Below are positions 2,587 through 25,249 of a DNA stretch of 28,304 nt, in pieces (positions within the stretch are counted from its first letter, which is position 1; each line of letters begins with the position of its first letter). The stretch covers positions 1-28,304 of the forward strand of contig CAZHPN010000066.1 of NCBI GenBank assembly GCA_964534375.1, in the 5' to 3' direction. This DNA comes from an uncultured bacterium (GTDB taxonomy: Bacteria; Lernaellota; Lernaellaia; Lernaellales; Lernaellaceae). The notes beneath the pieces are model-generated. The model saw only the letters and a list, made by a program, of their open reading frames with translations. It searched no databases and was not told where the DNA came from. The position numbers and the translations under genes are program-made.

Positions 2587-3726
2587 TCAGCCGGCCAGAT
2601 GCCGCGCGATGATGATTTGCTGGATTTCGGTCGCGCCCTCGATGATCGTCATCGCCTTCGCGTCGCGGAAGTAGCGCTCGACCGGATATTCCTCCATGTA
2701 CCCGTAACCGCCGAAGATTTGCACGGCCTCGCCGGTCACGTAGACCGCTGTCTCCGTCGCCTTCAGCTTGGCGAGACTCGCCTCGAGCGCGCAGGGGCGG
2801 CGCTGATCGCGTAGCCACGCCGCCCGCTGGCAGAGCAGCCGCGAGGCCTCGATCTCCATCCGCATCCGCGCGAGCTTCGCCTGCGTCAGTTGGAACTGGA
2901 ACAGCGGTTTCCCGAACTGCTCGCGCTCCTGCGCATATTTCACGGACGCGTCGAGCGCGGCCTGGGCGATGCCCACCGCGCGCGCGCCGACGACCATGCG
3001 CCCGCCGTTCAGAGCTTCCATGAGAATGTGGAAGCCCGCGCCCTCGTCGCCGAGCCGTTGCGCGTCGGGAACAAAGCAATCTTCGAAAAACAGTTCGCCG
3101 CATTCGCTCGAATGATTGCCGAGCTTCGGGAATGGCGCGCCCTGGGTGAAGCCTTTCGCGCCCTTCTCGACCACGAACAGCGTAATGCCTTTGTACTTTT
3201 TCTCCGGCGCGGCCTGCGCGGCGACGGTGACAAAATCGGCGAACGGCCCGTTGGTGATAAACGTCTTCGAGCCGTTGAGCACGTAACCGCCGTCAACCTT
3301 CTTCGCGCGCGTCTTGATCGCCGCTGCATCCGACCCCGCGCCGGGCTCGGTGAGGCCGAACGCGCCGATTTTTTCGCCGCGGATCGCGGGCCGCAAATAG
3401 CGCTCTTTGAGCGCGTCGCTGCCCAGCAGGTAAATCGGCAGCGTAGCGATCGACATGTGGGCCATGATGCCGCCGGCGAAGCCGGAACTCACTTTGCCCA
3501 ATTCCTCGGCGAAGAGCGTCAAGGTCATATATCCCATTTCCATGCCGCCGTACGCCTCGGGATAAGCGATGCCCAAATATCCCATTTCCCCGAATTTCGG
3601 AAACAGTTCCGGCGGGAAGCGATGCTCGCGCTCGCACCGCTCGACCAGCGGCGCGACCTCGCCGGCGAGAAATTTGCGGAAGCTGTCGACGAAAAGAAGT
3701 TGCTCTTCAGTCAGCCAAAAATCCAT
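2587..3726 (-). CDS. acyl-CoA dehydrogenase (short-chain/butyryl-CoA type)
   Basis: GAFGLTEPGAGSDA, LNGSKTFITNG, REQFGKP, QIFGGYGY, and RDAKAMTIIEGATEIQ with the catalytic Glu; GGAG RBS lies in the end of the upstream gene. Confidence 0.95.
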   Translation of the reverse strand: MDFWLTEEQLLFVDSFRKFLAGEVAPLVERCEREHRFPPELFPKFGEMGYLGIAYPEAYGGMEMGYMTLTLFAEELGKVSSGFAGGIMAHMSIATLPIYLLGSDALKERYLRPAIRGEKIGAFGLTEPGAGSDAAAIKTRAKKVDGGYVLNGSKTFITNGPFADFVTVAAQAAPEKKYKGITLFVVEKGAKGFTQGAPFPKLGNHSSECGELFFEDCFVPDAQRLGDEGAGFHILMEALNGGRMVVGARAVGIAQAALDASVKYAQEREQFGKPLFQFQLTQAKLARMRMEIEASRLLCQRAAWLRDQRRPCALEASLAKLKATETAVYVTGEAVQIFGGYGYMEEYPVERYFRDAKAMTIIEGATEIQQIIIARHLAG

Positions 3727-3730
3727 TGAT

Positions 3731-6004
3731 TTACTCCAACGTAGGCTTGGGTTCTACACACGGCACCACCGCTCCTTTGCTCAGCACCTGCTCAAACCAC
3801 AGGATCGCAGCTTCGCCTTCTTTGCGAGTGTAATCTGCGAGCGGGCGAATGTGACGAATCGTGTTGCGGAGTTCCGCAATTTGATCGAAGTGTTTATCTA
3901 GTTGTTCCTTGTTCCTAAATCGTCCCGCAAAACGATCCCAAAGCTGTTTGCTCGTTATTGTTCCTTGAAGTTCTCGAAAATCGAAGAAGTCGAGCGTTCC
4001 TTCGAGGGTATCGTACCGTTCCGAATCCATTGCGGCATCTTTGTTGAGGGCCTTTTGTATCCGTTGGCTCACATTATTGGCGACGTGATCCGGTAATAAT
4101 GTCTTGTCACCGTTAAGCGTCACCGCGATCGTCGTCCGCAGCCGAATTTCCAAATCCGCCAACTTCTTATCAAGATCGCGGAGGGCCGGTGGAAGATCCA
4201 GCCGCCTTTTCACAAGTAAGTTTTCGATGGCCTCGACAATGGTGCGTTGGCGCTCGTTAATAAATTCTTCATAGTCGATGGGAGTGAAAGGATCGCGCAG
4301 GAGGATTTCAAGCGCCTTCGAAGAGATTGAGTGCGCCGCCAACATGCTGCTGACTTGTTCCTCCCCGTTGGCGGCAATTAATTCCCGCAAATATTCGTTC
4401 GGCAACCTATCTCGAATAATGTCTCTATTGGTTGTTGATGTCAGCGGCGTTCGATTCAAGATCGAGTTGATTAAGTTATTTGGAACATATTTTTGGCCCC
4501 ATGATGCCGGAACGATGTGGTGATCGTCGAGTTCATCCGGGTGCGGGACATTGCCGGTGACCCAATCGCGGGCGCCCTGCAAAATCAAAAGATTGAAGAT
4601 ACCGTTATAAATTGAAGAGCCCCGTTTAGTTTCATTTCGAAGAACAAGGTTTCGGAAGGTCAAGGCGAATTCCCTGAGCAGTGCGGGCTCGGTTTCGTTA
4701 CTGTCGATCCACGCTCGGACATCGAAAAAATCGCGAGCGGCTGTGGATTCAACGGAACCAGAATAACGGTTCGTGAACACCGACGCCCAATACCAATGAC
4801 GGACTTTCCTCTGCGCCTCCAATTGCGTTTGCGACGGCATTGTTTTTACGTACGATTGAAGCGCCGAGAAAATCGGCAAAATTGATTCGTAAGGTAAGTA
4901 ATTTGCGGACGTGACCCCGAACTCCTGGGGATGGCGCAGGAGCGCAATTGATTTGTCTAACGCGTCAACGGCTGTATGCCAACGTTTCTCAAAATCGTTT
5001 GCATCATTGATCAAAATCTCTTTGCGTCTGGAGCCGCTGGGATCGCGGACGGTCTTCTCCTGTCCGGGCATCAGATAGTACAGATATTTTGGCGAACAGT
5101 AGCCCTGCGTGAGAATCGACATCACTTGAAGAATGTAAACGTTCGTTTTGTCAGAGCCGAGAAAATCAAATTTCGGCTTGGCATCTCGCCACATTTTCTT
5201 GAGCTGAATGCTTTTTGGCCTCAGCAGGGCGTTGAGCAAATCAAAGATATCCAACTGAATCCCGCGGCTGTTGATCTGCGTGAAAATATCACATACTTTC
5301 GCGACCTCAATGTCCTCGTCGAGCGCAATATATGACACTTTATATTGTAGAACTAGTTCGCTGATGCAATCGGCAAACTGTTTGGCATTCGTTGCATGTT
5401 CGCGCGCAATTTGCGCGGGCACTTCGTCACCATGTCTTGCGCATTCTTCCGCACTTTCCGCCCAGTACTTTTCGTAGCCTTGTAACCAGTTGGGAACAGA
5501 AAATAGACTTTCGCCGACAACAGAAAGGGGGAAAATGTGGCGTTTGTACTGCTCCTCGCGGGAACTCTGAAGGACTTGATTCGCGCTCTTATTCCATTCA
5601 TAGGTGAACGCCTCGTCGTACTCCTCAGCGATGAATCTGTCGATTCGAATATAGAAATAGTACCGATTAGACCGCTGAGGCAACGGCATATCGGGGGCGG
5701 TAAAGGCATAAAAAATCGCTGTGAGCCTTTGTTGGCCATCTAAAACGATGAAGTTTGGATTTGGCTCGCCGACATATCCGAAAATCGACTCGCACGAGAG
5801 AGCTTCGTAGTTCTGTCGCTTGCCTTTCCAGAAGAGAAAGTTTCCGATGTAATAATCGGAGAAGATTGAGCGCATCAACTGCCGAATGTCCGATGGACGC
5901 CACTCGAACTCCCTTTGGAAATCAGGCACCAGATATTGGCCTTTTTTGAGGTTAATAATAAGGTTCATGAGAGTTTCGGTGCTTGGTTGTTGAGCGTTTT
6001 TCAT
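3731..6004 (-). CDS. GmrSD-like type IV restriction protein (DUF262 + DUF1524-like HNH) with C-terminal Swt1-like HEPN domain
   Basis: VPDFQREFEW, VLDGQQRLT (5726-5740) and IFTQINSRG (DUF262); DHHIVP...NSILNRTPL (4508-4525, HNH); FFDF.EL...W..F...F.....ELRNTIRH (3851-3868, HEPN Rx4H). Visibly AT-richer than its neighbours. Confidence 0.85.
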   Translation of the reverse strand: MKNAQQPSTETLMNLIINLKKGQYLVPDFQREFEWRPSDIRQLMRSIFSDYYIGNFLFWKGKRQNYEALSCESIFGYVGEPNPNFIVLDGQQRLTAIFYAFTAPDMPLPQRSNRYYFYIRIDRFIAEEYDEAFTYEWNKSANQVLQSSREEQYKRHIFPLSVVGESLFSVPNWLQGYEKYWAESAEECARHGDEVPAQIAREHATNAKQFADCISELVLQYKVSYIALDEDIEVAKVCDIFTQINSRGIQLDIFDLLNALLRPKSIQLKKMWRDAKPKFDFLGSDKTNVYILQVMSILTQGYCSPKYLYYLMPGQEKTVRDPSGSRRKEILINDANDFEKRWHTAVDALDKSIALLRHPQEFGVTSANYLPYESILPIFSALQSYVKTMPSQTQLEAQRKVRHWYWASVFTNRYSGSVESTAARDFFDVRAWIDSNETEPALLREFALTFRNLVLRNETKRGSSIYNGIFNLLILQGARDWVTGNVPHPDELDDHHIVPASWGQKYVPNNLINSILNRTPLTSTTNRDIIRDRLPNEYLRELIAANGEEQVSSMLAAHSISSKALEILLRDPFTPIDYEEFINERQRTIVEAIENLLVKRRLDLPPALRDLDKKLADLEIRLRTTIAVTLNGDKTLLPDHVANNVSQRIQKALNKDAAMDSERYDTLEGTLDFFDFRELQGTITSKQLWDRFAGRFRNKEQLDKHFDQIAELRNTIRHIRPLADYTRKEGEAAILWFEQVLSKGAVVPCVEPKPTLE

Positions 6005-6178
6005 TCGCGTTCGCCTTCACCCCGTGAACGGGCCGTTGAAAGGCCAAGACGGCTTTTTTCAACGCCTCGGTTTTCCGAGGACACGGTCAGCCGTGGCTTC
6101 TATATTGCGGTCATTTGGGCGGGACCGAAAGTAAAAGTGACGGTCGCGACGCCCTTGTCCCTGCCCACCTGTATCCCG

Positions 6179-7324
6179 TTAGGACTTCAGAATTTCGCGG
6201 CTGACGATCAACTTCTGCACTTCGTTGGTGCCTTGCGCGGCGATCCAGGTGTAGGCGTCGCGCAGGTAGCGCTCGACGGGGTAATCCACGTCGCTGCCGT
6301 AGCCGCCGTAGATGCGGTTCGCGAGATCGACCGCCGCGATCAACGTGTCGCCGGCGTAGTACTTGGCCATCGAGGTCTCTTTTTGGTGATTTTCGGTGTG
6401 ATGGCTCATCACGGCGGCGCGGTAGGCCAAGAGGCGCGCGGCGTCGATCCGCGTTGCGAGTTCCGCCAGCGTGAACTGGATGTTTTGTTTGTCAGCCAAT
6501 TTGCGGCCGGCGACTTCACGCTGCTTGACGAACGCCACCGAAGCGTCGAACGCCGCACGGGCGAGGCCGACGAAGCCGAACGCGAGGCTGATGCGGGTTT
6601 TGCTGAGAACTTTCAGTGCGAGCCGCAGCCCGTCGCCGGTTTTGCCGATGCGGTTTTCCGCGGGACACGGCATGTTTTCGAAGGCGAGGTTGAACGCGCG
6701 GTGGCCCTTGAGGCCCATCGCCGCGCAATGCTTCACGAGCTTCAGGCCGGGCGCGCTTTTCTCGACAATAAACGCGCTGATGGCCTTTGCGCCCTGGGCG
6801 GGGTCTTCGGTGGCGAACACCGCAAAGAGGTCGGACATGTCGGCAAACGTGATCAGCCGCTTGGCGCCGTTGATGACGAAGCCCTTGCCGTTGGCCGTGG
6901 CGCGGCACTTCATCGCCGCCGGGTCGGAGCCCGGCCCTTCGTCGGTCAGCGCGTACGCGCCGATCTCGCCGTGGGCGATGCGCGTCAGGAAACGCTTCTG
7001 CTGCTCCTCCGTGCCGCCGAGCAAAATAACGTGTACGTAAAGCTGGCCGATTTCGAGAAACGGAATCAGCGCCGGGCACTGGTAAGCGATTTCTTCGGTG
7101 ATGATGCCGATCGAAACCTTATCCATTTCCAGCCCGCCGAATTTCTTCGGCACGGAAAGGGCGGGCAGCGAAAACGGCGGCCGAACGAGTTTGTCGACCA
7201 ACGTCTGAGGAACAAAATCGGTATCGTCGATTTCTTTGACGACGGGCGCGATATGTTCGAGCGCCGCCTCACGATAGAACGCCTGTAGTTTCTTCTGCTC
7301 CGCGGTGTAAAATGCGTAGGCCAT
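6179..7324 (-). CDS. acyl-CoA dehydrogenase family protein (catalytic Glu replaced by Gln)
   Basis: GAYALTDEGPGSD, INGAKRLIT, IYGGYG, VERYLRDA; the C-terminal motif reads AAQGTNEVQ. GGGGAG RBS upstream. Confidence 0.92.
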   Translation of the reverse strand: MAYAFYTAEQKKLQAFYREAALEHIAPVVKEIDDTDFVPQTLVDKLVRPPFSLPALSVPKKFGGLEMDKVSIGIITEEIAYQCPALIPFLEIGQLYVHVILLGGTEEQQKRFLTRIAHGEIGAYALTDEGPGSDPAAMKCRATANGKGFVINGAKRLITFADMSDLFAVFATEDPAQGAKAISAFIVEKSAPGLKLVKHCAAMGLKGHRAFNLAFENMPCPAENRIGKTGDGLRLALKVLSKTRISLAFGFVGLARAAFDASVAFVKQREVAGRKLADKQNIQFTLAELATRIDAARLLAYRAAVMSHHTENHQKETSMAKYYAGDTLIAAVDLANRIYGGYGSDVDYPVERYLRDAYTWIAAQGTNEVQKLIVSREILKS

Positions 7325-7336
7325 GATCGTCTCCCC

Positions 7337-7894
7337 TTAGACGTTGAGAGGTTCGAAATAGATATCGGTCATCGCGCCGGATTTTTCTTGGCGATAGACG
7401 ACCTTCACCGGCATGCCGTGGTGCGCCTTGCCGACGTCGTCCATCTCGATGTTGGTCATCATCAAAAAGTCGGAGCCGTCGAGCCGCACGTACGCGACCA
7501 GGAACGGCACCTTCGTCACGAACGCCGAAGTCGAGTAATGCTGAATCGTGAACGCCTCGATCTTGCCCGTGCCCGGCAGTTCGACCCATTCCGTCGCCTC
7601 GTAGCAAAGCGGGCAGGCGCTGCGCGGCGGGCAATAAACCTTGCCGCACTTCGGGCATTTGCTGCCCATCAGCCGTTCGTTGTGCAGGATCTCGCGGAAA
7701 AAGCGCGACTGCCCGCCGTAGGAATACTTGAAAAACACGTCCATCTTGTCGGGAACCTCGAAGGGCTCGTTCGGCCCCTTTTTTCCGTCGAGTTCGTCGT
7801 CGTACAGCGGACGCAGTTTTTCTTCGGGCAGCCGCAGCCGCGCCGCGTGCGCGCGGTAGAAGGCGTCTTTTTTGGAAAGTTTTTTGTCAGCCAT
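7337..7894 (-). CDS. DUF35 family Zn-ribbon/OB-fold protein (thiolase partner), 185 aa
   Basis: Start reassigned to ATG 7894 (MADKK), which overlaps the thiolase stop (TAATG). Motifs: FFREILHNERLMGSKCPKCGKVYCPPRSACPLC, GTGKIEAFTI, PFLVAYVRLDG, GMPVKVVY. Confidence 0.9.
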   Translation of the reverse strand: MADKKLSKKDAFYRAHAARLRLPEEKLRPLYDDELDGKKGPNEPFEVPDKMDVFFKYSYGGQSRFFREILHNERLMGSKCPKCGKVYCPPRSACPLCYEATEWVELPGTGKIEAFTIQHYSTSAFVTKVPFLVAYVRLDGSDFLMMTNIEMDDVGKAHHGMPVKVVYRQEKSGAMTDIYFEPLNV

Positions 7895-9096
7895 TAGTCG
7901 ACCCTTTCCAGCACGACCGAAACGGTCCACGCGCAAAGCGTGCCGCCGATCGATTGCACCAAACCGCGCCGCGCGTTCGGGGCTTGCCGCGCGCCGGCCT
8001 CGTTTCGCAACTGCCACACAACCTCGGAGGTTTGCATCAGTCCTGTCGCGCCGACGGCGTGGCCGCAGCCGATCAGCCCGCCGGAAAGATTGACCGGGAG
8101 TTTGCCCCCGGGCCAGACCGTGCCGTCGTCGATGAGCCGGCCGCCGTCGCCTGGTTCGCAGAAGAGGCAATCTTCATACGACATGATTTCCGTGCCGGTG
8201 AAGGCGTCGTGCAGTTCGGCCACGTCGAACTGGGCCAGCGGATCGGTGATGCCGGCCATCTCGTACGATTTCTGGGTGGCGACGCGGCAGCCGTGGAACT
8301 CGGCGATCGACTCGCGGTTTCCCGGATGCGCCCAATCGAGCGCCGCGCCCAGGCCCGTGATCCAGATCGGCGGCTTTTTCGGATGCATGTCCGCCACTTT
8401 TCGCCGCGACGCGAGCACCACCGCCGCCGCGCCCTCGGTGTAAAGGCAGTTGTCGAGCCGCTTGAACGGGTCGACGATCTTCGGCGATTTGAGCACGTCT
8501 TCCACGGTAATTTTCATGCCCGATTGCGCGCGCGGGTTCTTCAGCGCGTTGCCGTGGTTCTTCACCGAAACCTTGGCCATTTGCTCCGCGGTCGGCGTGC
8601 CGAACTTTTCCATGTGCGCGATCACCGCCAGCGCGAAACCTGAAGCCGCGGTGCGGCCGATCGGATTGTCATAGGTCATATCCGATGTGTAAAGAATGGC
8701 CCGCAGCACCTCGGGCACCGGGTTTTTGGTGTTGTAATCGTAGCAATCGGCGCACTTTTCCACGCCCAGCACCAGCACGATATCGTACAGGCCCGAGGCG
8801 ACCTCGGCGTAGCCGATGCGCAGCGCCGAGCCGCCGGTCGCGCCGCCGGTGTTGACGCGCACGGCCGGGATCGGCGGCAAACCGAGGTAGTCGTGGACGA
8901 AAGCGTCGGGCTGATACTGCCGCTGGAAAAAATCGTTGTAGATGCCGTAGACGGCCGCCTCGACGTCCGCCTTATCGATGCCGGCGTCCGCGAACGCCGC
9001 CTTCGCCGCTTCGTAGGCCAATTCAAAATAGGTTTTGTCCGGATGCCGCCCGCGAAAATTCGTGCAGCCGACCCCAATGATCGCCACGTCGCGCAT
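7894..9096 (-). CDS. SCP2-type thiolase-fold protein (nucleophilic Cys absent)
   Basis: VAIIGVG, KNHGNALKNPRA, EGAAAVVL, AELHDAF, VNLSGGLIGCGHAVGATG; GAGGAG RBS. Confidence 0.92.
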   Translation of the reverse strand: MRDVAIIGVGCTNFRGRHPDKTYFELAYEAAKAAFADAGIDKADVEAAVYGIYNDFFQRQYQPDAFVHDYLGLPPIPAVRVNTGGATGGSALRIGYAEVASGLYDIVLVLGVEKCADCYDYNTKNPVPEVLRAILYTSDMTYDNPIGRTAASGFALAVIAHMEKFGTPTAEQMAKVSVKNHGNALKNPRAQSGMKITVEDVLKSPKIVDPFKRLDNCLYTEGAAAVVLASRRKVADMHPKKPPIWITGLGAALDWAHPGNRESIAEFHGCRVATQKSYEMAGITDPLAQFDVAELHDAFTGTEIMSYEDCLFCEPGDGGRLIDDGTVWPGGKLPVNLSGGLIGCGHAVGATGLMQTSEVVWQLRNEAGARQAPNARRGLVQSIGGTLCAWTVSVVLERVD

Positions 9097-9267
9097 TTTT
9101 GCTCCTCAGGCACGTGCCTTGTTCTTGTCGCATTGCCGCCGATTCACGCGTCTGCCCGCGCAGACCTCACCCCGTCACGCTCAACGCTTGACTGCCCGTC
9201 TCCGCCGCGGAGAGGGGCCTGCGCGTGTCGCACGCTTGTCTTCGTTCAAAGATCAGTTGCCGCGCTT

Positions 9268-10125
9268 TCACTTTTGCAGCGGCGCCAGCCCCAGAATCTC
9301 CCGCGCCTCCGCCGGCGTGGCCGGTTCGAGGCCGAGTTCGCGTAGAATCCGCACCGACCGGGCCACCAATTGCGCATTGGATTGCACCAACTCGCCCTTG
9401 CGGTAATAGATATTGTCTTCCATCCCCACGCGGACATTGCCGCCCAGCAGCGCGCCGAGCGAGGTCAGCGGCAGTTGCGCCGAGCCGACCGCGCACACGT
9501 TGAACATCGCCTGCGGCGGCAAAAACTGGATCATCGACAGCAGCGTTTTCGCCGTCGCCGCCTCCGCGCCCTGGTGCGCCATGCCGAGCACGAGGTTGAT
9601 GACGTAGGGCGGTTTCACCAGGCCCTTCTCGATCAGGTTTTCGACCTCGCGGAACATCGCGTGCGAATAAACTTCCATTTCCGGCTTGATGCCGCGGTCG
9701 AGCAGGGCCTTGGCGAAGGTTTCGATGTCGTCGGTGGTGTTGCGGAAAATCGTATTGCGATATTGGCCCTTGGCCTTCGTGCGCACGAGCGTGCCCATGT
9801 TCAGCGAGGCCATTTCCGGGCCGGCGTCGATCACCGCCTGAATGCGCTGCTCGACGGTGAGGTTCGCGCCGCCGCCGGTGGTGTCCTGCAAGACGATGTC
9901 GCAGCGCTCGCGGATCAGTTCGTGAATGCGCCGGTACAGCGCGCCGTCGCCCGACATGGCGCCTTCCGGGTCGCGCGCGTGAATGTGGGCGATCGCGGCG
10001 CCTTCGTTGAACGATTCTTGCGCGTGGCGGGCGATTTCGTCGGGCTGCTCGGGAAGGTTGGGGTTCGCGGCCTTGGTGTGCATGCCGCCCGTCATGGCGA
10101 CGGTGATGATGATTGGTCGGCTCAT
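9268..10125 (-). CDS. beta-keto acid cleavage enzyme (BKACE/DUF849, 3-keto-5-aminohexanoate cleavage family)
   Basis: IITVAMTG, NPNLP..PDEIA, GAAIAHIHARD (HxH metal site), TTGG, PEMASLNMG, KPEME, GGNVRVGMEDN, SNAQLV, ATPAEAREILGL. Confidence 0.95.
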   Translation of the reverse strand: MSRPIIITVAMTGGMHTKAANPNLPEQPDEIARHAQESFNEGAAIAHIHARDPEGAMSGDGALYRRIHELIRERCDIVLQDTTGGGANLTVEQRIQAVIDAGPEMASLNMGTLVRTKAKGQYRNTIFRNTTDDIETFAKALLDRGIKPEMEVYSHAMFREVENLIEKGLVKPPYVINLVLGMAHQGAEAATAKTLLSMIQFLPPQAMFNVCAVGSAQLPLTSLGALLGGNVRVGMEDNIYYRKGELVQSNAQLVARSVRILRELGLEPATPAEAREILGLAPLQK

Positions 10126-10178
10126 GCTTCGTCCCTCACGCAGCTATCGCCGCGTTTTTTGCGATTTTTTTAATTTGA

Positions 10179-10267
10179 ACCACAGAGACACAGAGAACAC
10201 AGAGGAACACAAAGAAATCATCATTTAAATCACCTGTGCTTCTCTGTGTCCTCTGTGCCTATGTGGT
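10179..10267. repeat. intergenic inverted repeat built of CACAGAG units (REP/MITE-like)
   Basis: Left arm ACCACAGAGACACAGAGAACACAGAG (10179-10204) versus reverse complement of right arm 10242-10267 (ACCACATAGGCACAGAGGACACAGAG): 23/26 identical, with an AT-rich spacer. Confidence 0.8.
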
Positions 10268-10286
10268 GAATACTCATCCATTTCCT

Positions 10287-11444
10287 CTATTTCCGCGAAT
10301 AGCCGAACTCCTTGTAAACCTCGCGCGCGATCACCAGCGTCTGGATTTCGCTGGTGCCGGCGCCGATTTCGAGCAGGCGCGCGTCGCGCAGATGGTGCTC
10401 GATCGGGTATTCCTTCATGTAACCGTAACCGCCGAAAATCTGCAGCGCCTCGTTGGTCGTTTTGGTCACCATGCGCGAGGCGAAAAGCTTCGCCATCGCC
10501 GCCTGCCGGGTCACGCTTTTGCCCTGTTTGATCAGCTCGAGCAGGCCGTAGCAGAACGCCCGGACGATTTCCAGGTTCATCGCCATTTCGGCGATTTTTT
10601 GCTGCACCAACTGATACGACGCGATCGGCTTGCCGAATTGCGCGCGCTCGTGGGCGTATTTCACCGAGGCTTCGAGGCAGGCCATCGAAACGCCGATGCT
10701 GGAAAACGGCGACAGGCTGCGCTCCACGTCAAGCGAACTCAGCGTCTGCCTGAGTCCCTTGCCGACCTCGCCGAGCACGTGCTCGCGGCCGACTTTGACG
10801 TCTTCGAGAAAGATTTCCCCCGTGGGCGACGACATGCAGCCCAGCTTTTTCATCGGCTCGCTGGTCGTCATCCCCTTCATGCCGCGTTCGAGCACGAAGC
10901 TCGTGCCGCCTTCCAGGCCCTTCGTCCCCGGCGCGCGCGCGATCACAATCAGATAATCGGCGATCGGCGCATTGGTGATAAACGTCTTTTGGCCGTTGAG
11001 CACGAAGCCGTCGCCGGCCGGCTCCCAGCGCGTGGTGATCGACAGCGCATCGGAACCGGAACCGGGCTCCGTCAGCGCCCAGCCGCCGATTTTCTCGCCC
11101 GCAATGATCGCCGGCAGAAAACGGGCCTTCTGTTCCTTGCTGCCGAATTTGGCGATGTTGTTGGCGAACAGCAGATCCGACGCGTTGACCGAAACGTTGT
11201 AGCCGAGGTTCACCCGGCAGTTCTCTTCGTAAATCACTGCTTTGGCGACCAAGTCGCCCGAGCCGCCGTATTCCTCCGGCAGGTGCGCGCCGACGTAGCC
11301 CAGCTTGGCCGCCTGGCGATACACATCGAGCGGAAACCGCCCCTGTTCGTCAAGCTGGGGGCCGAGCGGGCCGAGCACCTCTTCGTTGAATTTCCGGACG
11401 TTTCTGCGCAGTTCCTGGTATTCCGGACTTAGGTCGTCGAACAT
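10287..11444 (-). CDS. acyl-CoA dehydrogenase, isovaleryl-CoA dehydrogenase-like
   Basis: WALTEPGSGSDA, LNGQKTFITNAP, LDVER (Glu at the IVD/LCAD position), RDARLLEIGAGTSEIQ (IVD-like EIGAGTSE). Confidence 0.93.
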   Translation of the reverse strand: MFDDLSPEYQELRRNVRKFNEEVLGPLGPQLDEQGRFPLDVYRQAAKLGYVGAHLPEEYGGSGDLVAKAVIYEENCRVNLGYNVSVNASDLLFANNIAKFGSKEQKARFLPAIIAGEKIGGWALTEPGSGSDALSITTRWEPAGDGFVLNGQKTFITNAPIADYLIVIARAPGTKGLEGGTSFVLERGMKGMTTSEPMKKLGCMSSPTGEIFLEDVKVGREHVLGEVGKGLRQTLSSLDVERSLSPFSSIGVSMACLEASVKYAHERAQFGKPIASYQLVQQKIAEMAMNLEIVRAFCYGLLELIKQGKSVTRQAAMAKLFASRMVTKTTNEALQIFGGYGYMKEYPIEHHLRDARLLEIGAGTSEIQTLVIAREVYKEFGYSRK

Positions 11445-11834: not shown

Positions 11835-13583
11835 TCATTCGAGCGTCATCTTCTCGATGATAAACGCTTCGCACGCGGCCGGGCCGATCTCGAGTTCGAA
11901 CAAGCGGCCGGCGGCCGGCGTGGGCAAGGGCAAATCGATCACGCCGTTGGCGAAGCCCGCGGCGGTCGTTTCGCCGAGCAGCGCGCCCCGCTTGCCGGTG
12001 TTCTCGATGCGATAAAAGGCGACGCGCGTGTCGCCCGGGCGGGCGCAGAAAAAATCGAGCGCGAGCCGCTGGGGCCGCACCTCTTTCCAGTACGTGAATT
12101 TCAGCCCGACCGTCGGATTGCGGCATTCGGGCGGGTCCGCATCGGTGCAAATCCGCCGCCGGAATTTGTCTTTCTCGCCTTTGGCCGGATTGAAGAGCGC
12201 CAGATAATCAACGCCGATCATGCCCGGCGCACTCGCGACGGCCATCAGCGATTCCGCCATGCCGCCGGCGGTCTCCAGCGGCGCCGTGAGCAGCGCGCGT
12301 TCGCTCTCCCAATATTGCCGCAGGTCGCCGGCGCTCAGCCAGCAGAGGGCCGCCGCCGCCAGGCCGACCGCGACCGCGGCCGGCGCGGCGCCGCGGTCCC
12401 CCGCCCAGGCTTTTTTCACCAGCGCACCGCACGCGTAAACCGGCACGGCGAGCGAGAGCGCGACCCAGAGCGATAACTGCTGGATGAAGGTAATGGGGTC
12501 GTGGAGAAAGGCGTCTCTCATGACCAGGCACCACAGCAGCGAGCCGGCGAACAGAAAAACGCCGCGAATGAATGCGGCCCGATTCGCCACTTCCTGTTTT
12601 TGCGCGGCGGCCAGCGCCAGCAGGCCGATCGTCAGCGCGCTCGGCAGAAAAAACCACCCGCCGAAGCCGGCGTCGCGCGACAGCACGTGCGCCGCGCGCG
12701 CCAAATAGATCCCGTAGGTCGGGTAATGCACGAGTTCGACGGTGTCGCCCAACATGGCCGACCGCTCGATGAAAGATGAAGACAGGTCGTGAACGGCGGC
12801 GGCGAACGAACCGAGCGAGACCAGTTGCAGAAAGTGCGCGAGAAACGCGGCCGGCCCGCCGAGCGCCGCGAGAAAATATCCCCGCCATTTGTCGCGGTTG
12901 TCGGACAGCAGGAAGCCCAGGATGATGAACACGGTCGCGATCTGGTAAACAAAGGCGCACGTGCCCTGCCAGAACGCGCCGGCGAAAGCCGCGGCGACGC
13001 CCCACCGGCTGCGGTTCTTCGCGTACATCGCCAGCCCGAGCAGCAGCAGCGATTGGTGCGGCAATTGAAAGGCATATTCGTAGATGCCGTGCGCGCGCAT
13101 CCAGAAGTGCGGATTGGCCAGAATCGCCGCGACCATCAGCAGGCCGAAAACGCGGTTCTTCAGCAAGGCCATGGCCTGAAACAACACCGCCAGCGCCGCC
13201 ACGTTGAGCGCAATCGAAAACCATCGCAACCCATGCAGCGAACTAACGCCCAGCAGGTGCAGCGCGCCGAAAAAAACCTCGCTGAAGGGCGGGATGTGCG
13301 TGTACAAACACGGACCAGGTCGGTAGTCGCCCGGCGGACACACGTCGGGCAGGAAATGGGTCGCCGCCAGCCCATGGAAACAAAACGATGCGATGGCCGA
13401 GACGACGTGGTTTTCCCACGTGCAGTTCGGATACAAGAACGAACTGCGCGGCAGCGAATTTCGCCAGCCCAAGGCGAGAAACGCGGCCACGATCAGCGCG
13501 GCCGTCAACGCTCCGACGATGGCGTTCGACCGCGCCGGCGGAATTTCGGACGCGTCGTCGCGGCGGCCGTCGCCCGCGTTCAC
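11835..13583 (-). CDS. polytopic membrane protein, possibly GT-C/ArnT-like glycosyltransferase
   Basis: About ten hydrophobic segments, an early extracytoplasmic loop with YTHIPP (resembles the YxHxPP of ArnT/PMT-like proteins) and a soluble C-terminal domain. Start and function are uncertain. Confidence 0.6.
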   Translation of the reverse strand: MNAGDGRRDDASEIPPARSNAIVGALTAALIVAAFLALGWRNSLPRSSFLYPNCTWENHVVSAIASFCFHGLAATHFLPDVCPPGDYRPGPCLYTHIPPFSEVFFGALHLLGVSSLHGLRWFSIALNVAALAVLFQAMALLKNRVFGLLMVAAILANPHFWMRAHGIYEYAFQLPHQSLLLLGLAMYAKNRSRWGVAAAFAGAFWQGTCAFVYQIATVFIILGFLLSDNRDKWRGYFLAALGGPAAFLAHFLQLVSLGSFAAAVHDLSSSFIERSAMLGDTVELVHYPTYGIYLARAAHVLSRDAGFGGWFFLPSALTIGLLALAAAQKQEVANRAAFIRGVFLFAGSLLWCLVMRDAFLHDPITFIQQLSLWVALSLAVPVYACGALVKKAWAGDRGAAPAAVAVGLAAAALCWLSAGDLRQYWESERALLTAPLETAGGMAESLMAVASAPGMIGVDYLALFNPAKGEKDKFRRRICTDADPPECRNPTVGLKFTYWKEVRPQRLALDFFCARPGDTRVAFYRIENTGKRGALLGETTAAGFANGVIDLPLPTPAAGRLFELEIGPAACEAFIIEKMTLE

Positions 13584-25236: not shown

Positions 25237-25249
25237 AATCAAGCAGTTC
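25237..25249 (+). promoter_or_regulatory. IHF-like binding site
   Basis: AATCAAGCAGTTC versus WATCAANNNNTTR (last base differs), located between the -24 box and the candidate enhancer sites. Confidence 0.45.

What the first reader, a model, noticed from the sequence alone, without database searches (positions are those of the whole stretch)
3731..6004. Single-gene candidate defence system: GmrSD-type NTPase/HNH DNase fused to a HEPN RNase-like domain
Seen: one 757-aa ORF with DUF262 motifs (QR...W, DGQQR, F..IN..G), an HNH motif (DHHIVP...N..N) and a C-terminal domain of about 140 aa with an intact Rx4H (RNTIRH) in a Swt1-like context. Known: GmrSD enzymes cut modified phage DNA, and HEPN Rx4-6H domains are often RNase toxins in abortive infection. 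Inference: sensing of modified DNA may drive both DNA cleavage and a back-up RNase suicide response in one polypeptide. No methylase or partner gene is adjacent. I cannot tell whether this exact fusion has been characterised.
Basis: partly seen in the sequence, partly recalled or inferred. Interest (0 to 1): 0.78.

Follow-up and report, generated by a model that had tools for sequence, protein, structure and literature searches.

The report
GmrSD-type restriction enzyme with HEPN tail
This is a single, horizontally acquired defence-type gene for a GmrSD-family DNA-cutting enzyme that also carries a predicted RNA-cutting HEPN domain; the combination is real and widespread, was already catalogued by comparative genomics, and has not been tested at the bench as far as the searches here show.

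Summary
Residues 18-261 are a GmrSD_N/DUF262 domain (Pfam 1.1e-30). The whole-protein model matches BrxU, DndI and SspE. Residues about 600-745 fold with high confidence (pLDDT 94) into a helical bundle whose best structural matches are mostly HEPN proteins (AbiF Z 9.8, AbiA, Cas13, Csm6, HEPN toxins, yeast Swt1). QRxxxW, DGQ.R, HHxxP..N..N and RNxxxH are invariant in 24 full-length homologs down to 26% identity. The tail is below Pfam's HEPN_Swt1 threshold, so I call it an Abi2/Swt1-clade HEPN domain and do not file it as a PF18731 member.

In this genome the gene is a lone low-GC insert (GC3 0.56 against 0.81-0.86) between two acyl-CoA dehydrogenase genes. Of 22 full-length homolog loci, 9 lie next to type I R-M genes and 6 next to other defence-type genes.

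The architecture was listed by Anantharaman et al. 2013, and this scan had already found it on other DNA (e1-1008568). My literature searches found no experimental study. The dual DNase plus RNase mechanism is plausible but inferred.

Verdict: a new member of a known, uncharacterised kind; moderate interest.

The parts
3731..6004 (-). Whole ORF, 757 aa plus stop: GmrSD-family enzyme with a C-terminal HEPN domain
   Evidence: single copy in the genome; GC 0.488 and GC3 0.563 against GC3 0.81-0.86 in 7 neighbouring genes
5222..5953 (-). DUF262 / GmrSD_N (ParB-like NTPase-type) domain, residues 18-261; contains QREFEW (5900-5917), DGQQR (5726-5740) and FTQINSRG (5261-5284)
   Evidence: Pfam PF03235 E 1.1e-30; sequence match to BrxU 7p9k E 2e-9; motifs invariant; coordinates verified
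4565..5221 (-). Helical middle region, residues 262-480, between DUF262 and the nuclease core
   Evidence: mostly helical in the full-length model; lies within the Foldseek alignment to BrxU/DndI/SspE. The boundaries are my estimate.
4211..4564 (-). His-Me finger (HNH, DUF1524-type) nuclease region, residues 481-598; core DDHHIVP...N517...N526 at 4427-4528
   Evidence: Pfam GmrSD_C E 0.28 and HNH E 0.33, both sub-threshold; homologs P0245 and P0265 pass the GmrSD_C cut-off; H495 H496 P499 N517 N526 invariant; strand-strand-helix at 492-530 in the model
3770..4207 (-). HEPN domain of the Abi2/Swt1 clade, residues 600-745; RNTIRH at 3851-3868
   Evidence: AF2 pLDDT 94.4; VIA-align: AbiF Z 9.8, then many other HEPN chains; R713 N714 H718 R720 W736 invariant in 38 sequences; sub-threshold HEPN_Swt1 in 7 of 38 homologs; ESM Atlas nearest clusters carry PF18731
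3731..3775 (-). C-terminal tail (residues 744-757 plus stop) absent from most homologs. The stop lies 4 nt from the ATG of the next gene, and a GGAG sits in the last codons.
   Evidence: alignment end; junction sequence; pLDDT below 50 for residues 745-757
6005..6178 (-). 174-nt upstream spacer between the acyl-CoA dehydrogenase stop and the ORF start; no convincing minus-strand promoter or terminator
   Evidence: site counts no higher than in shuffles; an RNA-library contig spans 5860-6379
2587..3726 (-). Downstream neighbour: acyl-CoA dehydrogenase (context, not part of the system)
   Evidence: Pfam Acyl-CoA_dh_1/N/M
6179..7324 (-). Upstream neighbour: acyl-CoA dehydrogenase (context, not part of the system)
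   Evidence: Pfam Acyl-CoA_dh_1/N/M

Best explanation
The gene encodes a stand-alone, horizontally acquired defence nuclease of the GmrSD/BrxU/SspE family with an added effector domain. It has an N-terminal ParB-like DUF262 NTPase-type domain, a helical middle region, a His-Me finger (DUF1524-type) DNase, and a C-terminal HEPN domain of the Abi2/Swt1 clade with an intact RNxxxH.

Shown here: the domains, their folds, the conservation of all catalytic-type motifs, the foreign base composition, and the defence-type neighbourhoods of relatives.

Inferred from what is published for BrxU, GmrSD and SspE: the DUF262 domain senses a feature of invading DNA (probably a base or backbone modification, since no methylase accompanies the gene). 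Nucleotide binding or hydrolysis then switches the enzyme so that the His-Me finger cuts that DNA.

Inferred further: the same switch brings two HEPN domains together to form an active RNase site, as in other HEPN enzymes. RNA (tRNA, rRNA or mRNA) is then cut, giving translation arrest as a second, abortive arm.
For: Identity of the protein body:
- Pfam GmrSD_N E 1.1e-30.
- PADLOC PDC-M55C 1.6e-25 and HEC-05 7.9e-23.
- Sequence match to BrxU 7p9k, E 2e-9.
- The full-length model (pLDDT 84.7) hits BrxU at E 2.6e-12 over 661 columns, DndI at 8.3e-6 and SspE at 1.4e-4.

Tail:
- Model pLDDT 94.4, pTM 0.85.
- The best of 48,161 chains is AbiF (Z 9.8, 142 aligned). Ranks 2-28 include AbiA, Roquin, Cas13, Csm6, SO_3166, HEPN-MNT toxins, sacsin HEPN and yeast Swt1 C-terminal domain (Z 6.5, 104 aligned).
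- Foldseek's only meaningful row is AbiF (prob 0.85, TMq 0.57).
- 7 of 38 homolog tails hit HEPN_Swt1 (best E 5.2e-5). Three each hit RiboL-PSP-HEPN, Abi_2 and SAV2148-HEPN.
- In the ESM Atlas, 21 of 30 named hits fall in the set whose clusters carry PF18731 (score 0.94).

Selection on all three sites: Q30 R31 W35, D89 G90 Q91 R93, H495 H496 P499 N517 N526, and R713 N714 H718 R720 are invariant in 24 full-length homologs at 26-63% identity.

Defence role by association, from 22 full-length loci:
- 9 have HsdM/HsdS genes within two genes.
- 6 have other defence-type neighbours (Gabija-like OLD+UvrD, DruA+HerA, MmeI-type methylase+helicase, Schlafen, PIN, IrrE/DUF4238).
- 7 have none.

The same tail is fused to BrxL, a reverse transcriptase, Mrr, Schlafen-kinase and others.

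Mobility:
- GC3 is 0.563 against 0.81-0.86 in neighbours.
- A full-length relative was found in only 1 of 40 other related genomes searched, and in 0 of 7 of the same family.
- Copies 56-61% identical occur in many bacterial phyla and in Methanoculleus.

Precedent: PD-T4-2 pairs DUF262 with a HEPN domain and protects against T4 (PMC10952713, passages; PMC9519451, passages).

Presence and possible expression:
- A DNA run of another sample bridges both junctions.
- RNA-library contigs of two studies match the gene without a mismatch.
Against: No activity, trigger or phenotype is shown for this protein or any member of its subfamily.

Pfam finds no HEPN family in this protein, even at E<=10. All HEPN_Swt1 hits in homologs are below the 27.5-bit cut-off.

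hhalign of the tail alignment against one true PF18731 member from a related genome aligned RNTIRH with RNKWAH but was not significant (prob 0.16, E 0.37).

The argument rests on how many of the top hits are HEPN chains, not on any single score.

Pfam support for the HNH part is sub-threshold here.

In this genome the gene is not in a defence island.

RNA-library contigs can come from contaminating DNA and carry no strand information.

The relative arrangement of the domains in the model is uncertain (pTM 0.61).
Confidence: 0.6

Rival explanations
1. The HEPN tail is not an RNase here. It serves as a dimerisation, nucleotide-binding or nucleic-acid-binding (sensor) module that regulates a purely DNA-directed type IV restriction enzyme.
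For: Some HEPN domains are non-catalytic binders: eukaryotic Swt1 HEPN is inferred inactive and proposed to sense RNA (PMC3710099, passages). BrxU is regulated through its dimer state (bioRxiv 10.1101/2024.01.29.577857, passages). Roquin's HEPN, an RNA-binding module by its entry titles, is among the top structural matches (Z 8.1).
Against: R713, N714 and H718 are invariant in 38 tails down to 29% identity and in 24 full-length homologs. That is the pattern of catalytically active HEPN domains. The 2013 catalogue lists this fusion as 'active'. The same tail is attached to many unrelated defence bodies, like an effector cassette.
Confidence: 0.15
2. The family is a PrrC-like guard of type I restriction-modification. 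The HEPN nuclease is kept latent by the R-M complex and is released when a phage anti-restriction factor disables it. The copy in this window is then an orphan, separated from its R-M partner, that works with a distant R-M system or not at all.
For: 9 of 22 homolog loci have HsdM/HsdS within two genes. In 6 of them (L016, L022, L023, L026, L032, L038) the gene is co-oriented and sandwiched between hsd genes, in several with 4-nt overlaps. Earlier scan notes e1-2401221 and e1-3060036 describe such passengers in two-methylase type I operons. That PrrC sits inside a type Ic R-M operon is my recollection and comes from no call.
Against: 7 of 22 loci, and this window, have no R-M neighbour, and 6 more sit beside unrelated defence-type genes. 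The protein carries its own complete sensor-plus-DNase body, like the autonomous enzymes BrxU and GmrSD. PrrC's N-terminal domain is an ABC-type ATPase (recalled), not DUF262. Being embedded in an R-M operon is common for unrelated defence genes (bioRxiv 10.1101/2024.01.29.577857, abstract).
Confidence: 0.15
3. The gene is a functionless or decaying passenger from a recent transfer, or a selfish element with no benefit to the host.
For: Foreign composition; lodged inside a catabolic operon with no defence neighbours; C-terminal tail altered relative to most homologs.
Against: The ORF is intact over 757 codons with every conserved motif present. It is present at the same junctions in an independent sample, and identical contigs occur in RNA libraries of two studies.
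Confidence: 0.05

Closest known systems
BrxU / GmrSD / SspE / DndI (GmrSD-family type IV restriction and modification-sensing nucleases; PDB 7P9K, 7DRS, 6JIV, 9JFL)
   Same: DUF262 domain with QRxxxW and DGQQR, helical middle region and His-Me finger nuclease in the same order. Best sequence match in the PDB and best fold matches. PADLOC HEC-05 (BrxU-like) E 7.9e-23. A single-gene enzyme with no cognate methylase.
   Different: About 150 extra C-terminal residues form a HEPN domain that none of the solved enzymes has; the matches cover the body only. Identity to BrxU is only 18% in the structural alignment. The Pfam GmrSD_C score is below threshold. Machnicka et al. 2015 list DUF4268, DUF4357 and DNA_binding_1 as extra domains, and the word HEPN occurs 0 times in the text (PMC4619093, term search).
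Swt1-like / Abi2-clade HEPN fusions catalogued by Anantharaman et al. 2013 ('ParB (DUF262) with HNH ... (VNG7073), active')
   Same: The same three-domain combination and the same HEPN clade. A Halobacterium pNRC100/pNRC200 ORF matches residues 334-743 at 21.6% identity and has a sub-threshold HEPN_Swt1 hit in its tail.
   Different: The entry is a catalogue listing, without experiment. The Halobacterium ORF annotated today is 465 aa and lacks the DUF262 part. I could not confirm that it is VNG7073, because old locus tags are not shown.
PD-T4-2 (E. coli anti-T4 system, Vassallo et al. 2022)
   Same: Pairs a DUF262 domain with a HEPN domain. It is experimentally protective against T4, also in its native strain.
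   Different: It has no DUF1524/HNH domain, and its HEPN is assigned to PF18735, RiboL-PSP type. No PD-T4-2 model appeared among the 23 PADLOC hits at E<=1.
AbiF/AbiD (Abi2 family) and AbiA C-terminal HEPN; HEPN-DUF499 ATPase of Hma / BREX-related systems
   Same: Closest solved folds to the tail are AbiF (Z 9.8) and AbiA (Z 8.2). The Swt1-clade HEPN fused to a DUF499 ATPase acts as a proposed back-up effector (PMC12839542, passages). A true PF18731 member (119 bits) opens a 1101-aa ORF in a related genome.
   Different: The partner domains differ (ncRNA-bound dimer, reverse transcriptase, STAND-type ATPase). Sequence similarity to these is not significant.
PrrC / RloC anticodon nucleases
   Same: An NTPase-type N-terminal part plus a C-terminal HEPN nuclease. 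Many homologs of the present gene sit inside type I R-M operons.
   Different: PrrC's N-domain is an ABC-type ATPase and it has no DNase domain (recalled, from no call). The present copy has no R-M neighbour.

Membership tests
GmrSD family (type IV restriction-type enzymes: GmrSD, BrxU, SspE) | N-terminal DUF262 (PF03235) with QRxxxW and DGQQR motifs | tested here: met
   PF03235 E 1.1e-30, 107.7 bits against cut-off 33.2; motifs present and invariant
GmrSD family (type IV restriction-type enzymes: GmrSD, BrxU, SspE) | C-terminal DUF1524 (PF07510) His-Me finger with (D/E)H..P...N...N | tested here: inconclusive
   PF07510 scores only 11.5 bits against cut-off 23 in this protein. Homologs P0245 (25.1 bits) and P0265 (23.4 bits) pass it. 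H495 H496 P499 N517 N526 are invariant. The Foldseek alignment to BrxU spans 661 columns, and Cas9 HNH domains appear as weak hits.
GmrSD family (type IV restriction-type enzymes: GmrSD, BrxU, SspE) | Overall fold like the solved members | tested here: met
   BrxU 7p9k_A E 2.6e-12, prob 1.00; DndI 9jfl_A 8.3e-6; SspE 7drs_A 1.4e-4. TM-scores are low (0.26-0.32), as expected if the domains are placed differently.
GmrSD family (type IV restriction-type enzymes: GmrSD, BrxU, SspE) | NTP-stimulated cleavage of modified DNA | not testable with these tools
   Needs biochemistry and phage assays
HEPN superfamily | All-alpha helical bundle of the HEPN fold | tested here: met
   Confident model (pLDDT 94.4). 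Most of the top 28 VIA-align matches are HEPN chains: AbiF 9.8, AbiA 8.2, Roquin 8.1, 1wwp 8.0, Cas13 7.6, 2hsb 7.5, SO_3166 7.1, HEPN-MNT 7.0, Csm6 6.9, Swt1 6.5. Single Z values are in the range where helical bundles can match by chance.
HEPN superfamily | Conserved Rx4-6H motif | tested here: met
   R713-N-T-I-R-H718. R, N and H are invariant in 38 tails and in 24 full-length homologs.
HEPN superfamily | Metal-independent endoribonuclease activity | not testable with these tools
   Needs an RNA cleavage assay
Pfam PF18731 HEPN_Swt1 | Score at or above the gathering cut-off (27.5 bits) | tested here: not met
   No hit for residues 600-757 or 540-757 at E<=10. Homologs hit only below the cut-off: 5 of 62 and 7 of 38, best E 5.2e-5. 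hhalign against one true member gave prob 0.16. The nearest ESM Atlas clusters carry PF18731 in 31% and 19% of members. I therefore place the tail in the Abi2/Swt1 clade by resemblance and do not file it as a PF18731 member.
PD-T4-2 | Match to the PADLOC PD-T4-2 models; DUF262 and RiboL-PSP-type HEPN without DUF1524 | tested here: not met
   No PD-T4-2 model among the 23 PADLOC hits at E<=1. This protein has a His-Me nuclease region, which PD-T4-2 lacks.
PrrC/RloC-type anticodon nuclease | ABC-type ATPase N-domain plus HEPN; embedded in a type I R-M operon | tested here: not met
   The N-domain is DUF262, not ABC-type. There are no R-M genes in the window. 9 of 22 homolog loci do have hsd neighbours.

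The most novel reading that the evidence does not exclude
One polypeptide couples a ParB-like NTPase sensor of foreign DNA to two different nucleases: a His-Me DNase for direct restriction and a HEPN RNase as a fail-safe that arrests translation. The RNase arm may be released when a phage anti-restriction factor blocks the DNase or, in operon-embedded copies, the surrounding type I R-M enzyme (PrrC-style guarding). The HEPN tail would then be a portable effector cassette, shared with BrxL, reverse transcriptases, Mrr-helicases, Schlafen-kinases and dynamin-like GTPases.
Probability: 0.35. Interest if true: 0.6.

Novelty: new member of a known kind. Interest (0 to 1): 0.38.

Why it matters
GmrSD-family enzymes are understood as DNA-directed type IV restriction enzymes. 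A large, strongly conserved subfamily adds a predicted RNase: at least 120 protein clusters at about 60% identity and 98% coverage, spread over many bacterial phyla and an archaeon.

If both nucleases are active and share one sensor, this would be a compact example of layered immunity in a single protein, combining direct restriction with abortive translation arrest. It would also be a simple model for asking how DUF262 NTPase switching licenses different effectors.

The subfamily is common, compact (2.3 kb) and autonomous in at least some genomes, so it is easy to test. This particular copy adds no new architecture. Its value is as a clean, solitary example.

Tried and rejected
- **HEPN homodimer prediction.** Complex prediction with two copies of the tail alignment A2 scored 0.28 and 0.24, below the mark of 0.42. 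The verdict was 'no answer', so it says nothing for or against dimerisation.
- **Foldseek of the tail against the PDB**. No match at E<=0.001; only AbiF stood out (prob 0.85).
- **hhalign of A2 against one true PF18731 sequence**. Not significant (prob 0.16). Only one true member was found among the 17 genomes of the phylum searched, so no profile of real members could be built.
- **NCBIfam.** 0 families.
- **Empty-site test.** I looked for the two flanking acyl-CoA dehydrogenases side by side in 5 same-family genomes. Tandem dehydrogenase pairs exist there, but they are only 32-50% identical to the window's genes. Orthology is unclear and the test is inconclusive.
- **Mobility signatures.** No flanking direct or inverted repeats that bracket the insert, no tRNA in the window, and promoter- and terminator-like sites no more frequent than in shuffles.
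- **Plasmids and phages.** 34 plasmid records and 2 phage records hold relatives of the body. The tail alone matched a single plasmid record, in Persicobacter. The full-length query also reached the tail region (to residue 743) in six Halobacterium plasmid records.
- **Papers naming PDC-M55 or PDC-M34.** 0 papers, so I cannot say what those PADLOC candidate systems are.
- **RNA runs.** Parts of the gene without cover in X5, X6 and X7 are not evidence of anything.
- **** failed because my coordinates were out of frame. I repeated it with correct coordinates.
Full report
**Observation**

The window holds one open frame of 757 codons from ATG at 6004 to TAA at 3731-3733 on the minus strand. The plus strand of the same span is full of stops.
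- QREFEW, 5900-5917
- DGQQR, 5726-5740
- FTQINSRG, 5261-5284
- DDHHIVP...N...N, 4427-4528
- RNTIRH, 3851-3868

Homologs begin with the same MK(D/N)AQ(K/Q)P, so the long start is the likely one. A public gene call starts 12 codons later (P0002, 745 aa).

**The body of the protein**

Pfam finds GmrSD_N (DUF262) on residues 18-261 at E 1.1e-30. GmrSD_C and HNH score only E 0.28 and 0.33 around residues 490-529.

PADLOC's best models are PDC-M55C (1.6e-25) and the BrxU-like HEC-05 (7.9e-23), and both cover the N-terminal part only. NCBIfam finds nothing. The only significant PDB sequence match is BrxU 7p9k (2e-9, residues 11-97).

I built a full-length AlphaFold2 model on 24 homologs (pLDDT 84.7, pTM 0.61). 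Its Foldseek matches are BrxU (E 2.6e-12, 661 columns), DndI (8.3e-6) and SspE (1.4e-4 and weaker), with 8 matches at E<=0.001 in all. Low TM-scores (0.26-0.32) fit different domain placement.

The model has a strand-strand-helix element at residues 492-530, where the HH..P...N...N residues lie. Two homologs pass Pfam's GmrSD_C cut-off (P0245 at 25.1 bits, P0265 at 23.4 bits).

I accept the body as GmrSD family. The nuclease domain is supported by motif and fold more than by Pfam.

**The tail**

Pfam gives no hit for residues 600-757 or 540-757, even at E<=10.

An exhaustive phmmer search of residues 600-757 against 1.84 billion representatives found 460 proteins at E<=0.001, of which 214 were at E<=1e-10.

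I aligned the tail with 37 short hits (A2). R713, N714, H718, R720 and W736 are invariant at 29-54% identity to the query. Of these 38 sequences:
- 7 hit HEPN_Swt1 (best E 5.2e-5)
- 3 hit RiboL-PSP-HEPN
- 3 hit Abi_2
- 3 hit SAV2148-HEPN
- 2 hit DUF3644

All of these hits are below the curated cut-offs.

The AlphaFold2 model of the tail is confident (pLDDT 94.4, pTM 0.85) and all-helical. Foldseek against the PDB found nothing at E<=0.001; the only telling row is AbiF 8vz6 (prob 0.85, TMq 0.57).

VIA-align against 48,161 representative chains put AbiF first (Z 9.8, 142 residues aligned). The next ranks include AbiA (8.2), Roquin HEPN (8.1), 1wwp (8.0), a Cas13-type complex (7.6), AF_0298 HEPN (7.5), SO_3166 (7.1), HEPN-MNT toxin (7.0), Csm6 (6.9), Cas13bt3 (6.9), yeast Swt1 C-terminal domain (6.5, 104 aligned) and sacsin HEPN (6.4). 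The tool warns that such Z values can arise by chance for helical bundles. What carries weight is that so many of the top hits are HEPN chains.

The ESM Atlas places the tail nearest to clusters in which 31% and 19% of members carry PF18731. That set accounts for 21 of 30 named hits, with a top score of 0.94 and 197 shared features.

A profile comparison with the single true PF18731 member I could find in the phylum (119 bits) aligned RNTIRH with RNKWAH but was not significant (prob 0.16).

Conclusion: the tail is a HEPN domain with an intact Rx4H, nearest to the Abi2/Swt1 clade, and formally below the Pfam PF18731 threshold.

**Conservation of the whole architecture**

The search for homologous proteins returned 2,921 proteins at E<=0.001 among 8,000 candidates scored. 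The best 120 listed are 740-838 aa and cover 98-100% of the query. Of these, 119 are 59-63% identical and one is the identical P0002.

In 24 full-length sequences, including six at 26-48% identity, the invariant columns include:
- Q30 R31 W35
- D89 G90 Q91 R93
- H495 H496 P499 N517 N526
- R713 N714 H718 R720

All three catalytic-type sites therefore appear to be under selection.

A scan of one genome per GTDB species found 558 relatives. Of the 68 distinct loci kept, 28 reach the tail (query residue 740 or beyond), 33 end near residue 565-612 and are untailed GmrSD-like enzymes, and 7 are cut by a contig end or otherwise reach no further than residue 683.

Tailed copies at 46-61% identity occur in Chloroflexota, Verrucomicrobiota, Alphaproteobacteria (for example Methylocapsa aurea), Thermoleophilia, Gemmatimonadota, Geobacteraceae, Planctomycetes, Bacteroidota, Acidobacteriota and the archaeon Methanoculleus marisnigri. 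Tailed copies with only 23-25% identity in the body also exist (L063, L071), so the fusion is older or more frequent than the tight clade alone suggests.

**The tail as a portable module**

I scanned 62 of the 150 listed tail hits with Pfam. The results:
- 12 carry GmrSD_N.
- 3 carry BrxL_ATPase, one of them with BrxL_N as well (P0152).
- 2 carry HARE-HTH.
- One each carries RVT_1, Guanylate_cyc, Helicase_C+Mrr_cat, Pkinase+SLFN_AlbA_2, Dynamin_N and Hypoth_Ymh.
- One of the 12 GmrSD_N proteins (P0192) also carries Mrr_N.
- Many of the rest have no Pfam hit.

Most of these bodies are defence-type proteins, which fits an effector cassette.

**Genomic context**

In this window the gene lies between two acyl-CoA dehydrogenase genes (2587-3726 and 6179-7324), all on the minus strand. 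They belong to a cluster with a ChsH2-like protein, a thiolase-like protein, a BKACE enzyme and a third dehydrogenase.

The other window ORFs scanned hit HxlR, a thioesterase, FGE-sulfatase, DnaJ, DUF4340, a PAS/MEDS sensor and a TPR protein. None hit a methylase or defence family.

The gene has GC 0.488 and GC3 0.563, against GC3 0.81-0.86 in seven neighbours. It is single-copy in the 6.3-Mb assembly.

Among 40 other related genomes searched, one (G015, same class, 61% identity) has a full-length relative, and none of the 7 same-family genomes does.

There are no bracketing repeats, no tRNA, and no excess of promoter or terminator patterns.

The last 14 residues have no counterpart in most homologs. 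The stop codon sits 4 nt from the next gene's ATG, with a GGAG inside the last codons. The insert's 3' end therefore seems to run into the host's ribosome-binding site.

I could not find a clear orthologous empty site in relatives.

**Context of homologs**

For 22 loci with a full-length match I called ORFs with a simple greedy script and scanned 76 neighbours, mostly the two on each side.

- 9 of 22 have HsdM and/or HsdS within two genes: L016, L018, L022, L023, L026, L032, L038, L041, L002.
  - In six of these (L016, L022, L023, L026, L032, L038) the gene is co-oriented and sandwiched between hsd genes.
  - L016 and L023 have two HsdM-type genes, as in the two-methylase type I operons described in earlier scan notes.
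- 6 of 22 have other defence-type neighbours:
  - L025: OLD-TOPRIM ATPase + UvrD
  - L031: DruA + HerA-like
  - L042: MmeI-type methylase + helicase + MZB
  - L019: Schlafen AlbA_2
  - L029: IrrE/HTH + DUF4238
  - L037: PIN
- 7 of 22 have only housekeeping or unassigned neighbours (L015, L017, L020, L021, L035, L043, L062), as here.

Several solitary copies are also GC-poor relative to their flanks.

**Presence and expression**

- A DNA run from another sample and study (X2) has contigs without a mismatch that span 3400-4775 and 5139-6145. The insert and both junctions are therefore not an assembly artefact.
- RNA-library contigs without a mismatch lie on the gene in two studies. X5 covers 5044-5246 and 5860-6379; the second contig spans the start codon and the stop of the upstream dehydrogenase. 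X6 covers 4018-4251 and 5440-5635.
- This is weak evidence of read-through transcription. Such libraries can contain DNA, and contigs carry no strand information.

**Literature**

- Anantharaman et al. 2013 (PMC3710099; passages found by term search). Table 1 lists, under Swt1-like HEPN, 'ParB (DUF262) with HNH (DUF2081) (VNG7073), active'. The text notes that HEPN domains in R-M contexts fuse to ParB-like and HNH DNases.
- Halobacterium pNRC100/pNRC200. These plasmids carry a 465-aa ORF that matches residues 334-743 at 21.6% identity and has a sub-threshold HEPN_Swt1 hit. I could not confirm that it is VNG7073.
- Machnicka et al. 2015 (PMC4619093, passages). They list other extra domains in GmrSD homologs, and the word HEPN does not occur in the text.
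- Payne et al. preprint (10.1101/2024.01.29.577857, passages). [quoted passage not shown] They did not test a fusion.
- Mariano and Blower 2023 (PMC10952713, passages) and Vassallo et al. 2022 (PMC9519451, passages). PD-T4-2 combines DUF262 with a HEPN domain, lacks DUF1524, and protects against T4.
- The 2026 BREX survey (PMC12839542, passages). It treats HEPN fused to DUF499 as a back-up effector.
- A RelE/ParE survey (PMC11980606, passages). It describes a DUF262 protein in an operon with a RelE-type RNase.
- Six full-text searches turned up no experimental study of the DUF262-HNH-HEPN fusion. Subscription journals and supplements were not searched.
- An earlier report of this scan on another genome (e1-1008568) reached the same reading, which I re-derived independently here.

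**Mechanism**

Shown: domain identities, folds, motif conservation, foreign origin, and defence-type association.

Inferred from published BrxU, GmrSD and SspE work: DUF262 senses a feature of foreign DNA and uses NTP binding or hydrolysis to license the His-Me nuclease.

Inferred from general HEPN knowledge: two tails must pair to form the RNase site, so a change of oligomer state driven by DUF262 could switch on RNA cleavage.

I put about 0.6 on the combined statement. The domain identity alone I rate near 0.9, and an active, co-regulated RNase arm at about one in two.

Rivals:
- a non-catalytic HEPN (0.15);
- a PrrC-like guard of type I R-M, orphaned here (0.15);
- a functionless passenger (0.05).

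**Verdict**

The architecture is already catalogued and widespread but uncharacterised. This copy is a clean, solitary, recently acquired member. Novelty: new member of a known kind. Interest: 0.38.

Noticed in passing
proteins P0138, P0141, P0152: The same HEPN tail is fused to BrxL_N + BrxL_ATPase, at the position where BrxL normally has its Lon-like domain. The BREX survey passages I read mention Lon and HKD C-termini; I saw no mention of a HEPN variant, but I did not read the whole paper.
   Followed up: partly
proteins P0151, P0164, P0169, P0236, P0248, P0143, P0173, P0192: The tail also ends proteins with a reverse transcriptase, an adenylate/guanylate cyclase, Helicase_C+Mrr_cat, a protein kinase+Schlafen AlbA_2, a dynamin-like GTPase, HARE-HTH, or Mrr_N+GmrSD_N. 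One member of alignment A2 carries a CAP12/Pycsar-type TIR domain.
   Followed up: no
window 3724-3775: The ORF's last 14 residues are absent from most homologs. The stop TAA (3731-3733) is 4 nt from the ATG (3724-3726) of the downstream acyl-CoA dehydrogenase, and a GGAG lies in the last codons. The foreign gene therefore seems to end inside the host gene's ribosome-binding site.
   Followed up: partly
window 2587-11444: Catabolic cluster, all on the minus strand: three acyl-CoA dehydrogenases (2587-3726, 6179-7324, 10287-11444), a ChsH2-like OB/zinc-ribbon protein (7337-8170), a thiolase-like protein (7894-9096) and a BKACE enzyme (9268-10125). The defence-type gene interrupts it.
   Followed up: no
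window 5860-6379: An RNA-library contig (run X5) without a mismatch spans the end of the upstream dehydrogenase, the 174-nt spacer and the first 145 nt of the ORF. This hints at read-through transcription; the strand is not known.
   Followed up: partly
L002 (G015:C2:741840-747068): The only full-length relative among the related genomes searched lies in the opposite orientation between an HsdS-like ORF and an N6_Mtase ORF, as if dropped into a type I R-M operon backwards.
   Followed up: no
L018:557-5971: Next to one homolog lies an 1804-aa protein with DUF4011, AAA_11/AAA_12 helicase, MTES_1575 restriction-endonuclease and GreA/GreB-C domains. This is a giant of the kind that the 2013 HEPN survey lists as sometimes carrying a Swt1-clade HEPN.
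   Followed up: no
L083 (G013:C23), ORF of 1101 aa: A true PF18731 HEPN_Swt1 domain (119 bits) opens a 1101-aa ORF in a related genome. It is probably a HEPN-DUF499 ATPase of an Hma/BREX-related system; the rest of the ORF was not scanned.
   Followed up: no
window 21967-25242 (-), 11835-13583 (-), 12208-13224 (-), 19424-20638 (-): Long ORFs with no Pfam hit at the thresholds used, including one of 1091 aa. AT skew is unusually high (0.21-0.33) around 12-13.5 kb.
   Followed up: no
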